Part shown: positions 47,980-52,222 of the stretch, piece after piece
Numbering within the stretch: the first letter of the stretch is position 1
Layout of the letters: every line of letters starts with the position of its first letter
DNA from: Eledone cirrhosa
Taxonomy: Eukaryota
Length of the DNA: 64,000 nt
NCBI GenBank assembly: GCA_964016885.1
Contig: OZ024743.1
Span: 13,082,001-13,146,000 of the forward strand
Reading direction: 5' to 3'
The notes under the pieces: model-generated
The model's database searches: none
Seen by the model: only the letters and a program-made list of their open reading frames with translations
What the model was told of the DNA's origin: nothing
Program-made: the position numbers and the translations under genes

Positions 47980-48023
<44 letters not shown>

Positions 48024-51000
48024 CGTTTCTGAAACGAAATATCGTTCAGAAACGAAATATCGTTCAGAAACGAAATATCGTAAGCCTTAGCCAGGCTAAC
48101 AAGATACTGAAAACCACCATGTTCTGTTGTCTACGAAAAACCATAACATCTCGACAACTACACTTCATAAAACTGTGCACCACTTCTAGAATCTACACCA
48201 ACACCATCAATACCGACGTTAGAAGATTACAACTCACCAAAAAACAAGCAGATAGGCTAAAACGAACTTTAATTCTAAACATAAAAAAGAAGATCTATAG
48301 AGAATTAAGTCATCAAGAAAAACTAAAGCGTAACCTAATAGATGAAATATCTAAAATCACCACACCAGCAGAAAAACTAACATTTATAAGCCTTATACGC
48401 CCCGAAGAACAGTACATTACTCAAGAATGTAATAAGCACTTTAACAGAAAATTAAAGTGGCTTAAACAGGCAAAGCTAAATCGGGATACTATAGAGTATA
48501 CCAATAGATATCCCGACAAAATTGACGGTATCAACATGGCCAACACCTCATTATCTGAAGAGTTCAACAATGAAAATACCAACATTTATGGAAACACGGA
48601 AATAGATAATAATGAAATGTCTGTGTTACGTCTGCCACCCAAATTTGCGACATTCCAGAAGGTAAATATGATTAGTTGTCTGTCAGAAATAGAAAAATCA
48701 TTTACGAAACTACGCTGGAGCATCAAAAACAAAAATAAAAGCAACAATATACGCACACACATATACAACACACATCCCAACAACAACAGACACACAGACA
48801 CAAACAACAATAACAACAACAATAGCAACATACCCAGATACAACAACAACAATAGCAACATACCCAGATACAACAGACACGCAGACACAAACAACAATAA
48901 CAACACACACGGAGACAACAATAACAACAACACACACATCAACAACAACAACAATAGCAACATACCCAGATACAACAACAACAGACACGCAAACACAAAC
49001 AACAATAACAACACACACAACAACGATAACACACACACACACGGAGACAACAACAACACACATCAACAACGACACACATCAACAACAACAACACACACGC
49101 ATTCAATGCCTCTCACCACCACCACAATCTTAACAAACACACAGACACAGAAAACAAGTAATGACAGTAGCACAGAAATCAGAGAAATAAGAGAAAGTAA
49201 TAGGATTAAAAGGAAAAGGAGATGGGAGACTAAGGACAAAGAGAATAACCAAGACGAACACACAGACACACAAAATAGGGTAGATAACAACATTGAGCCA
49301 GTGGAAAAAGACAGGAGTAATTATGAGAGACATAGAAACAACCATGAAGCTGAGGCTGCTGCTGTTGGTGGAAATAGAAACAACACAACTAACAATAACA
49401 ATAGCACTAGTACACATAAAGCAGCAGCCTGGAACTCTCCGTTTTATAACCCCTCCGATAAATCATTCGACCTACGACGAGTCCACGCCACGACTTTGCC
49501 ATTTAACAAACGCACGCAGTTGCCGTCGCAAGTCGATGAACAAACAGAAGCACAATTTAGTATAGCTAAATCCGAACTTAGAAATATTATAGAACAGTAT
49601 AGCAAGAAGCATAATAGAATAGAGGCCCAGCAACTGGGAGAAGAATCTGCAAATGGCTTGCGTAAGCTCATGCAGCGCTCGCGTAATGGAGAGATAGCAT
49701 GCTTTCCAACAGACAAGTCTGGCAGAATGTCGGTTGACAGCCTGCCAAACTACATCCAGGCAATGCAACCCCACATCACTAACACAAGAGAGGTAACACC
49801 ACAGGAGCATGAGGATAGAGAAAAAACCCTCAATGCCCATATGGTGATGTGGACAAATATAATGCAGCCCAACAAAAGGACTGCCAACAACTTCCAGGCC
49901 TGGAACAATGACGTGCCGGCGTTGTATGGGCTTCGAAAAGACCATAAAACGGGCTGGGACCCTGTCGCGGGACCACCAACACGGCCAGTCTGTGGGGCTA
50001 ACATTGCTAGTAACTACAGACTGTCCTACTTCCTCTCCCTGATCATACGCCCCATCATTGAGATGTCCCCAGATGTGTGTGACAGCACGGAGGACCTCCT
50101 CAGCAGAATCGGCGCGGGTAACCGATCTGGGGACCTAACAAACTGCATAATAGGCAGTATGGATGTTGTGTCCCTGTATCCATCTATTGACGTGGATTTT
50201 GCTGTGGAGAAATGCGTCGAAATGATCAGCGAGAGCAAGGTTGAGTTCCGTGGGATTGATACCAGTGAGCTGGAACTTCTACTTAAGCTTACCCATAGTA
50301 ATAGTTACCTAGACACTTATGACCTTAGCAACCTGTGCCCTACAAGACCAGCAAGAGGCAGACCACCTACCATTACCTCAATGGCCAAGAAAACCCACAC
50401 AGATAGATGGAACGGGTGGACCAGAGCCATACGGACACCCGAAAACCACTATGAACTGAAGAAAATGATTGCACATGCGGTAGGGGCCAGCATAAAATTA
50501 ACCCTTAAGGAACATATGTTCAAATTTAATGGTAAAACATATGCCCAAGAGGAAGGAGCAGCCATTGGTGTTAGCATTGCAGGCGACATAGCTAACTTAT
50601 TTATGGTATGGTGGGACAGTAGACTTAAACAAAAACTTAATGAACAATTAGAAGACAGCTTAACCCTGATAATGTACTCCCGCTACGTAGATGATATAAA
50701 CATCGTAGTTAAGACACCCCCACTAAAGAACAGTCAGGAACTAGAGAAAAACACAATGGAAAGCATCCAGCAAATAGCAAACTCCATCCACCAGAGCATT
50801 AGAGTTACTATAGACTACCCAAGTAGACACCCCAACCATCGATTACCTTTACTAGAAACAGAGCTCTGGTTAGATACTATTAACAACCAAAAACAAATCC
50901 TCCATTCCCATTATGCCAAACCCATGACTTCCAAACATCTGATCCACCGAAATTCGGCCATTTCGGACCATACCAAAATCAACATACTGATTGCGGATTT

Positions 51001-51814
51001 GGTACGGGTGATGAGAAATGTGTCCCGCATGTGCAACCCCGAAGAACTAGAGAGACACATACAACACTTCATCCACCGTATGCAGTTCTCTGGCTACAAT
51101 CAGAGAGATAGAATCAGAGTGTATAAAGGAGCCAGAACCAAATGGGAAAAAATGGTAAATAATGACATAAATGGGACCTGCCCCTTGTATAGGAGCAAAT
51201 TTTGGAATAGAATAGAAAGAACTAAGAACAAGGGCAATAGAATAAACTCATGGTATGATAGCAATAAATACCAGAGTGTAATGTTCATCAATACAACCCC
51301 TAGAGGCGAACTAGCCTACAAATTTAGAAGGGCCCTAAAGAAACATAATCTCAATATTAAGATAGTAGAAAGACCTGGTACCTCCGTAAAAACACTTATT
51401 AGCAAGACATACCCGTTCCAAAGACCCTCATGTATAGATAAGAAATGTATAACCTGTAAAATAAGCCCCCATATTAACTGTAAAACTAGAAATGTAGTAT
51501 ATAGCATAAGATGTACTGAAGGACAATGTAGAAACAAAAATATAGTGTACATAGGTGAGACAGCTCGTAGTATAGGGGAACGAATAAATGAACACTGGCG
51601 AGACCTCCAAGATAGTAAAGAATCATCTGTGCTCTACCAACATGCTAAGATAGAACACAGGGGTAAATTAGAGAGCATAGAAATAAAAATAGAATCCACA
51701 CACAAGAAAGACGCAATGTTTAGGCAAATTACAGAGGCAGTAAGCATAAAAGAATTAAAACCAAAATTAAATAGAAAATATGAGTGGAACAGCAACATCA
51801 CAACTTACAATTAA
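47954..51814 (+). CDS. Penelope-like retrotransposon polyprotein (reverse transcriptase + GIY-YIG endonuclease). Element sequence begins ~48021; the first ~25 codons of the called ORF are microsatellite/flank
   Basis: PTDKSG, PTRPVCG, GSMDVVSLYPSI, QEEGAAIG, YSRYVDDI, YAKP thumb, C..C..C..C linker, VVYSIRC..YIGETARSIGERINEH and RQITEAVSI..PKLN. No internal stop. Confidence 0.95.
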
Positions 51815-52216
51815 GGACAAAATGAAAACACACACACACATAGAACCAACCAACAATAAATAAATAAATAAACAAACAAATAGAAAAATAAAAAATGAAC
51901 ACAAACACACACAGACACCCGGATGTGGCGCATGCGCAAACTGAGCACGCAACCCACACACAAACAAAATGGCGTAGGATAGAAGAAAGGAAAGGCACAG
52001 AAACGAAGAAAGAAATCCCCAGTCACTGAAGAGGTCACAGAGTGTGTGACGAAAGAACTATGACTATATATATATAAACAACTATCTGGTTGTGGAACCA
52101 ACCAACCAACCAGAAATTTATAAATTTGTAAATTTATAAATATATAATAAATTAAATTGAAGTGAAAGCAACTGGTGCGTGTGTTTCTTATTGGCAACAT
52201 GACCCTCCCAAAGTAT

Positions 52217-52222
<6 letters not shown>
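48021..52222 (+). mobile_element. Near full-length PLE inserted in (TA)n
   Basis: (TA)n on both sides. ORF, 3' region with hammerhead, and a tail that runs into the ORF's own start codon. Confidence 0.92.
52021..52065 (+). ncRNA. Type I hammerhead ribozyme in the PLE 3' region
   Basis: agtca-CTGAAGA-g-gtcaca-gagtg-tgtgac-GAAAG-aa-CTA-tgact. Predicted cut after 52060. Confidence 0.85.

What the first reader, a model, noticed from the sequence alone, without database searches (positions are those of the whole stretch)
48021..52222. The PLE's start codon sits at its 3' end, indicating a permuted (tandem or circular) template
Seen: the tail after the hammerhead ends ATG ACC CTC CCA AAG TAT AAC AAT (52199-52222). 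The sister copy's tail runs further (30390-30311, minus) as [27 protein letters not shown]. This overlaps in frame with the 5' end of the big ORF (ttcagaaacga, QKR-NIVSLSQANK). A diverged relative at ~52.6 kb shows the same continuity. Known: PLEs form tandem pseudo-LTR arrangements with variable tails. Inference: the window reconstructs a complete ~4.2-kb unit. Reverse transcription started at variable points inside the ORF start of a tandem or circular RNA, so this copy lacks its own promoter and AUG.
Basis: partly seen in the sequence, partly recalled or inferred. Interest (0 to 1): 0.7.

Follow-up and report, generated by a model that had tools for sequence, protein, structure and literature searches.

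The report
Penelope-like retrotransposon with rear-end start codon
A Penelope-like jumping gene carries the first codons of its own gene at its far end, a known signature that likely arises when copying starts inside an RNA longer than one unit; its reverse transcriptase also has an unusually long insert that may mark an unnamed subgroup.

Summary
The core observation holds. The 3' tail of this Penelope-like element (PLE) encodes the true N-terminus of its ORF. The sister copy's tail overlaps the ORF start in frame by 11 nt. A profile built only from 18 outside homologs places the tail peptide directly ahead of the ORF start (0 of 2000 shuffles). The relative at 52.5 kb matches only through about codon 24; its claimed continuity is not supported.

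This pLTR-plus-tail layout, internal RT initiation and the circle model are all published (PMC3846280, PMC11167929, PMC4209133). Start points are not variable: four ends fall at two sites (+24 and +81 to +86 from the ATG), and each insertion uses both. Tandem versus circular template cannot be decided here.

The unexpected part is the protein. It has a C-terminal CCHH GIY-YIG domain and a hammerhead, but also a motif A-to-B spacing of 131 aa (family median 132). Published C-terminal-endonuclease PLEs give about 60-63 aa. It fails at least one diagnostic of every named PLE clade, so it may be an unnamed lineage; no tree with named references was possible.

The parts
48018..52222 (+). Main PLE copy between two (TA)n runs; covers unit positions +71 to the end and then +1 to +24 (positions counted from the tail ATG)
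48018..48033 (-). 16-nt inverted mini-copy of unit positions +71 to +86; its outer end is end site 2 and it forms a palindrome with the body
   Evidence: hairpin z = -7.9 for 48015-48090
48027..48081 (+). 18-nt unit (+71 to +88) in 3.1 tandem copies at the 5' junction
48065..51814 (+). Uninterrupted ORF from predicted codon 25 to the stop (1,249 aa); first in-frame ATG at 48119 (codon 43)
48731..49438 (+). Asparagine-rich (30% N) low-complexity insert; RW-to-DKS spacing 334 aa against a median of 114 in 53 homologs
49709..50695 (+). RT core: DKS motif 49709, KDHK 49937, motif A 50159, motif B 50555, YVDD 50684
   Evidence: Pfam RVT_1 E 3.7e-5, below the curated cut-off; best structural matches are TERTs
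50162..50557 (+). Motif A-to-B region of 131 aa, about 70 aa longer than in published C-terminal-EN PLEs, at the position of the telomerase IFD
   Evidence: hand counts on Fig. S1 of PMC8557442; models
51425..51811 (+). Short Cys linker (C-x4-C-x2-C-x7-C) and C-terminal GIY-YIG endonuclease with Cys and His residues of the CCHH type
   Evidence: Pfam GIY-YIG 25.1 bits, above the 22.6 cut-off; conservation
52021..52065 (+). Minimal type I hammerhead: 5-bp helix I, 6-bp helix II, extra base between positions 9 and 10.1, 1-bp helix III; predicted cut 52060/52061
   Evidence: features compared with PMC4209133
52199..52222 (+). Codons 1-8 of the ORF at the 3' end; first ATG after the predicted cut; end site 1
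30310..31754 (-). Sister copy body, 5'-truncated, 98.3% identical over 904 nt, one in-frame stop; hammerhead at 30571-30527; tail runs to +81 (end site 2)
30310..30390 (-). Sister tail, codons 1-27 of the ORF
31752..31838 (+). Inverted piece at the sister's 5' end, ending at end site 1; 100% identical to the sister's own 3' region, 94% to the main copy
52527..52602 (-). Diverged relative of the tail (82.9%, 76 nt; weaker likeness up to about 52680); start codon reads ATT; no significant match past about codon 24

Best explanation
This is a Penelope-like retrotransposon whose 3' end carries the first codons of its own ORF, likely because its reverse transcriptase starts at two fixed sites inside the ORF start of an RNA longer than one unit, most likely a partial-tandem transcript. 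Shown: the layout, the coding identity of the tail, two end sites each used twice, and (TA)n flanks. Inferred: the GIY-YIG domain cuts both strands of a (TA)n tract and each 3' end primes a cDNA, one at +24 and one at +81 to +86, helped by ATAT pairing at three of the four ends. One cDNA runs long and the other short, and the two join head to head, which gives an inverted piece at the 5' end and a longer tail at one end only. In the main copy the long cDNA began at site 1 and stopped at +71 of the upstream unit, so codons 1-24 and the likely pLTR promoter are missing from its 5' end. It would need a partial tandem, or the codon-43 ATG plus a host promoter, to be expressed.
For: Tail and ORF overlap in frame at an 11-mer found only at these junctions. 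All 18 outside homologs, chosen on similarity to the ORF and not to the tail, extend upstream of codon 25. Their profile places the tail at positions 1-22 and the ORF start at 24-80 (13.9 bits, 0 of 2000 shuffles with the first residue fixed; fixed-register sum 280 against a null mean of 15). P0262, P0302, P0322 and P0324 carry both segments in one chain. Sister versus relative: 9 of 14 differences at third positions and 6 of 13 changed codons synonymous in this frame (120 of 20000 null). The sister's inverted piece is 100% identical to its own 3' end and 94% to the main copy, as expected if both ends came from one event. PMC11167929 showed two internal start sites, extension of both strands and no need for hammerhead cleavage in a Poseidon element. 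PMC3846280 and PMC8557442 describe the same pLTR, tail and inversion layout.
Against: Only two insertions (four ends) were seen. No direct tandem copy is in the window, so the tandem RNA is not observed. The two sites are about 57-62 nt apart, against the 30-40 bp tail in the literature. ATAT microhomology differs from the non-homologous priming reported for PAc, and the sister's 3' end has only 1 nt of it. Local alignment of the tail alone against five homologs was not significant (664 to 4212 of 5000); the signal appeared only with more homologs and a fixed register. Target-site duplications cannot be read in (TA)n.
Confidence: 0.75

Rival explanations
1. Same protein and start sites, but the template is a monomeric circle made by hammerhead cleavage at 52060/52061 and ligation.
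For: An intact minimal hammerhead is present in both copies. A circle gives the same permutation. The model was proposed in PMC4209133. The main copy spans just under one unit.
Against: Helix III is 1 bp, so cleavage would need two ribozymes, i.e. a tandem RNA first (PMC4209133). The main copy's helix III self-duplex is unstable (+1.4 kcal/mol; sister -1.7). In PAc, hammerhead mutants insert normally and no RNA-seq reads end at the cut.
Confidence: 0.15
2. The template is a linear monomer cut at the hammerheads; RT starts at +24 or +81, reaches the 5' end 138 nt upstream of the ATG and jumps to the 3' end of a monomer.
For: The 18-nt repeats and the inversion at the main 5' end fit an RT that jumps templates. 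Template jumps are invoked for PLEs in PMC3846280.
Against: Both copies read cleanly and identically across the predicted cut, with no junction scar. It needs efficient cleavage.
Confidence: 0.06
3. The real start is the ATG at 48119 and the tail ATG is an upstream ORF or chance, so the main copy is a complete gene.
For: The context ACCACCATG is strong. The relative has ATT at the tail start.
Against: All 18 homologs begin upstream of codon 43, and the tail matches their N-termini. The tail shows synonymous bias in this frame.
Confidence: 0.03
4. The inversion, the 18-nt repeats and the tail ends are assembly artefacts or later DNA slippage in a microsatellite-rich region.
For: The window is very rich in (TA)n. 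PMC8557442 notes that such structures trouble assemblies.
Against: Two separate insertions use the same two end sites reciprocally, and the sister's inverted piece carries the sister's own variants.
Confidence: 0.04

Closest known systems
Canonical EN+ Penelope-like elements (pLTR, tail, inverted 5' copy; PMC3846280, PMC8557442)
   Same: Single RT plus C-terminal GIY-YIG ORF, first codons at the 3' end, tail at one end, head-to-head inverted piece with a palindromic junction, hammerhead, (TA)n target, Asn-rich insert.
   Different: Tail about 57-62 nt against 30-40. The Asn-rich insert lies before the RT, not after the RT core. DKS replaces DKG. Motif A-to-B spacing is 131 aa against about 60-63.
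PAc (Poseidon of Anolis; PMC11167929)
   Same: Two internal RT start sites inside the ORF start that define the tail; AT-rich target; both strands extended.
   Different: PAc starts 111-118 nt into the ORF without homology to the target, and its hammerhead overlaps the start codon. Here the sites are +24 and +81 to +86, three of four ends share ATAT with the target, and the cut lies 138 nt upstream of the ATG.
Nematis clade
   Same: Short Cys linker ahead of a CCHH GIY-YIG domain (compared by eye with Fig. S2 and S7 of PMC8557442).
   Different: Nematis has DK-G/R motifs, KTHK in RT1 and a short A-to-B spacing (63 by hand count); this family has DKSG, KDHK and 127-135.
Hydra clade
   Same: KDHK, an RW motif, YPS(I) in motif A, (TA)n target, hammerhead.
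   Different: Hydra lacks CCHH, has a CxCx5C linker, no IFD, a divergent motif B and is under 3 kb; this element has CCHH, a long insert and a 4.2-kb unit.
Naiad and Chlamys clades; telomerase RT
   Same: Extra sequence between RT motifs A and B (IFD position); the model's best structural matches are TERTs (Z 14.9, rmsd 3.7, 375 aligned for 7trd_A).
   Different: The endonuclease is C-terminal, a canonical hammerhead is present, and the insert is longer than in Naiad (84) and of TERT size (human 118, Tetrahymena 152). A fold match to the TERT IFD was not obtained.

Membership tests
Penelope-like elements (order) | One ORF with RT and GIY-YIG endonuclease | tested here: met
   1,313-aa open frame; GIY-YIG above the Pfam cut-off and RVT_1 at E 3.7e-5 when scanned by domain; the whole ORF gave no Pfam hit
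Penelope-like elements (order) | RT closest to telomerase RT | tested here: met
   Model pLDDT 93; the top 14 VIA rows are all TERT, best Z 14.9, rmsd 3.7, 375 aligned; Foldseek top hit is a TERT
Penelope-like elements (order) | CCHH motif in the endonuclease | tested here: met
   Two Cys between the two Tyr motifs in 111 and 107 of 112 rows; His 723 in 107 and His 739 in 109 of 112
Penelope-like elements (order) | Hammerhead motif in the terminal repeat | tested here: met
   Pattern hit in both copies, 0 of 2000 shuffles; not detected by Rfam; cleavage untested
Penelope-like elements (order) | Tail and inverted 5' copy | tested here: met
Penelope-like elements (order) | Direct partial tandem (5' pLTR) | tested here: inconclusive
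   None in this window; the rest of the genome was not available
Penelope/Poseidon | No Zn-finger linker between RT and EN | tested here: not met
   Four linker Cys in 110-112 of 112 rows
Neptune | Long Cys linker, DKG motif, no IFD | tested here: not met
   Short linker, DKS, A-to-B spacing 131 against 60 (comparison by eye)
Nematis | Short Cys linker before a C-terminal EN | tested here: met
   against Fig. S2 and S7, by eye
Nematis | No IFD; canonical DK motif | tested here: not met
   Spacing 127-135 in 119 of 121 rows against 63; TDKS in most homologs
Hydra | CCHH absent, CxCx5C linker, under 3 kb, no IFD | tested here: not met
Naiad/Chlamys | N-terminal endonuclease | tested here: not met
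   EN is C-terminal; 0 of 67 homologs with a long N-terminus show the second GIY-YIG motif before DKS
Naiad/Chlamys | Lengthened A-to-B region (IFD position) | tested here: met
   against Fig. S1; length and position only
Telomerase IFD | Same fold as the TERT IFD | tested here: inconclusive
   The region folds with pLDDT 87.5; no chain reached Z 5 among 48,161, TERT chains scored Z 3.1-3.4
Any named PLE clade | Placement in an RT phylogeny with named references | not testable with these tools
   No reference PLE protein was retrieved; the tree holds family members only

The most novel reading that the evidence does not exclude
The element belongs to a large, deep, so far unnamed PLE lineage that joins a C-terminal CCHH GIY-YIG endonuclease and a hammerhead to an RT with a telomerase-sized insertion in the fingers. 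This combination is said not to occur in canonical PLEs. Its RT primes both ends of a (TA)n break at two fixed RNA sites and can copy an 18-nt template segment repeatedly, in a telomerase-like way.
Probability: 0.4. Interest if true: 0.6.

Novelty: new variant of a known kind. Interest (0 to 1): 0.33.

Why it matters
The permutation itself is ordinary PLE biology and matters mainly for annotation: the consensus must be read across copies, and the 3' ATG is the real start. Two things add value. First, two natural insertions each use both end sites reciprocally, which extends the two-site result from one Poseidon element to a distant family and gives a simple genome-wide test of two-ended priming. 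Second, the published view is that C-terminal-endonuclease PLEs lack the IFD. A family with over 100 sampled members carrying a conserved 70-aa insert there would add a ninth PLE lineage and bear on whether the IFD predates the PLE-telomerase split or arose several times. The main copy has an uninterrupted ORF, so the family may be young enough for biochemistry.

Tried and rejected
Rfam missed the hammerhead; its window-wide hits were microsatellite noise. The repeat finder was swamped by (TA)n. The whole ORF gave no Pfam hit and no useful solved-structure hit by sequence. Local alignment of the tail alone and a six-homolog profile did not detect the tail. The shuffle test left the first Met free and so was biased; it was redone with the first residue fixed. 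A word search with the N-terminal 250 aa found none of 199 candidates. An endonuclease-only search meant to fetch canonical PLE references returned 1 of 47 candidates, a family member. The A-to-B region alone matched no known fold (0 of 48,161 chains at Z 5 or more; no Foldseek hit at E 0.001 or less); this does not show the fold is new. The viral fold library gave only generic polymerases. The sigma-70 promoter scan is irrelevant to a eukaryote and showed nothing above chance. ESM Atlas gave PLE-type clusters without clade names. My first recalled idea that the RT was Naiad-like was dropped after reading Fig. S1. The claimed continuity of the relative was rejected. No search of the rest of this genome was possible; metagenome and viral contig collections stayed unchecked, and the prokaryotic genome collection was not used.
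Full report
Verdict. That layout is the published pLTR-plus-tail signature of PLEs, so the permutation is not new. Two details of the finding need correction, and the protein turns out to be more unusual than the termini.

Anatomy. The main copy runs 48018-52222 (+) between (TA)n runs. Its frame is open from the flank to 51814. [quoted passage not shown] A 30% Asn insert occupies 48731-49438. A minimal type I hammerhead lies at 52021-52065, 207 nt after the stop; my pattern finds it in both copies and in 0 of 2000 shuffles of the 3' UTR, while Rfam misses it. 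The first ATG after the predicted cut is 52199, 138 nt downstream. The nearest named relative is an Octopus vulgaris protein (68% over 90% of the region searched; sister in the tree at 100/100), so a cephalopod host is my inference.

The tail is the N-terminus. The sister (31754-30310, minus; 98.3% over 904 nt) has a tail of 27 codons. Its last 11 nt occur in the window only at the junctions of these two copies and are in frame with the ORF (about 4e-5 by chance). An HMMER search with the ORF's first 250 aa gave 175 hits, 150 listed. I took all 15 whose match began within the first 20 query residues, plus 3. All 18 extend upstream of codon 25. A profile built from them alone places the 24 tail codons at positions 1-22 and the ORF start at 24-80 (13.9 bits; 0 of 2000 shuffles with the first residue fixed). 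By eye, 6 of 18 have [LI]PK and 4 of 18 have NTR at the tail's positions. An earlier test with five homologs was not significant. Between sister and relative, 9 of 14 differences are at third positions and 6 of 13 changed codons are synonymous in this frame, against 1-4 in the other five frames (120 of 20000 null). The unit is 4,206 nt and 1,273 codons; 46 nt are present only in the sister.

Correction 1: the relative. The match at 52602-52527 (minus) is 82.9% over 76 nt and covers about codons 1-24. Past that point DNA similarity to the ORF is at chance (583 of 2000), as is the profile score (1360 of 2000) and the score against five homologs (487-1963 of 2000). One protein alignment to the main ORF is marginal (129 of 5000). 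It is best read as an older copy ending near end site 2, not as evidence of continuity.

Correction 2: two sites, not variable points. Counting from the tail ATG, the main copy's 3' end is at +24 and its 5' end begins with a 16-nt inverted piece ending at +86. The sister's 3' end is at +81 and its 5' end begins with an 87-nt inverted piece ending at +24. Each insertion therefore uses both sites, one at each end. The sister's inverted piece is 100% identical to its own 3' region and 94% to the main copy. Three of the four ends fall on ATAT in the element, which matches the (TA)n target. The main 5' junction also holds an 18-nt unit (+71 to +88) in 3.1 copies. The main copy has an in-frame ATG at 48119 (codon 43), so it is not without any AUG, but all 18 homologs start upstream of it.

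Mechanism. Shown: the layout and the coding identity of the tail. Inferred: the endonuclease cuts both strands of (TA)n; each 3' end primes a cDNA at one of the two sites; a long and a short cDNA join head to head. Copying from +24 back through the hammerhead into the ORF needs RNA on which the ORF start follows the 3' UTR: a partial-tandem transcript, a circle, or a jump between cut monomers. I favour the tandem transcript. The 1-bp helix III implies a dimeric ribozyme (PMC4209133), the main copy's helix III self-duplex is unstable, and in PAc cleavage was dispensable and no reads ended at the cut (PMC11167929). No direct tandem is in the window, so this step is unobserved. The 18-nt repeats may be repeated re-initiation near site 2 or later DNA slippage; I cannot separate these.

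What is known. [quoted passage not shown] PMC11167929 (parts 1-2 of 4 and passages; supplements not read): two internal start sites define the tail and both strands are extended. PMC4209133 (parts 1-2 of 4): minimal hammerheads and the circle model. PMC8557442 (sections 3, 6, 11, 12, passages, supplement parts 1, 2, 53, 54, 57, 58 and one search): clade diagnostics and a tail often at one end only. bioRxiv 10.64898/2026.07.22.740005 (parts 1-2 of 5; its supplements are closed) still lists eight clades. PMC8969392 and PMC8775202: passages only. Arkhipova 2006, Evgen'ev and Arkhipova 2005, Repbase and Dfam were not seen and may bear on the clade question.

The protein. The distance from the motif A Asp to the motif B Gly is 131 aa. 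In 119 of 121 aligned rows it is 127-135. My hand counts on Fig. S1 of PMC8557442 give 61 (Penelope), 63 (Nematis), 60 (Neptune), 84 (Naiad-Amil), 105 (Chlamys-1), 118 (human TERT) and 152 (Tetrahymena TERT). In alignment A2 (the window plus 111 of the 120 homologs; 9 with partial coverage left out), 108 of 112 rows have both the long spacing and C-terminal GIY-YIG residues, and 0 of 67 homologs with a long N-terminus have the motif ahead of the RT. The linker resembles Nematis, KDHK and RW resemble Hydra, and DKSG matches neither. The family is deep, 30-68% identity, with several supported subclades in a tree of 48 of the 112 rows. The model is confident (pLDDT 93) and its best matches are TERTs, but Tribolium TERT, which from recall lacks most of the IFD, ranks among them, so this does not test the insert. 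Folded alone the region is confident (87.5), and a fold link to the TERT IFD stayed inconclusive. PMC8557442 says canonical C-terminal-EN PLEs lack the IFD and notes sporadic IFD-like regions in Coprina, so independent gain is plausible. Searches found no paper describing such a family. Without named references in a tree, and without Repbase or Dfam, an unnamed lineage remains a possibility at about 0.4.

Scores. The finding as posed is already known (about 0.15 alone). The reciprocal two-site ends and the possible unnamed clade raise it to 0.33, as a new variant of a known kind.

Noticed in passing
window 35849-36884 (+): 3' fragment of a second PLE, frameshifted and preceded by (TA)n, with a CxCx5C linker and surrounding motifs like those of the Hydra clade (compared by eye). 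No Pfam hit; my hammerhead pattern found nothing after it.
   Followed up: partly
window 32619-33731 (+): 3' fragment of a LINE-type RT ORF directly after a (TA)n run (Pfam RVT_1 E 1.4e-7); the LINE label is recalled from the sequence pattern.
   Followed up: partly
window 41567-42064 (-) and 42132-42587 (-): Two related short C-terminal fragments behind (TACA)n-type repeats that look like restriction-like endonuclease ends of non-LTR elements (recalled label; no significant Pfam hit).
   Followed up: partly
window 48027-48081 (+): An 18-nt segment of the ORF start in 3.1 tandem copies plus its inversion, ending next to end site 2; it could record repeated copying of a short template.
   Followed up: partly
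window 48731-49438 (+): In-frame Asn-rich insert built of 108-132 nt repeats, ahead of the RT; the Octopus vulgaris relative P0001 also has an Asn/Ser-rich N-terminal stretch.
   Followed up: partly
window 52055-52058 (+) and the matching sister site (-): Hammerhead loop III differs between copies (GAAC against GGAC); the sister's version forms a more stable self-duplex (-1.7 against +1.4 kcal/mol).
   Followed up: partly
window 27091-27722 and 28545-29180: Near-identical translated segments flank a short non-repetitive ORF at 27816-28175, suggesting a direct duplication of about 1.15-1.45 kb spacing (seen only).
   Followed up: no
window 35012-35107 and 21366-21479: Long near-perfect hairpins that drew weak miRNA-model hits below the gathering scores; possibly small inverted-repeat elements.
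   Followed up: no
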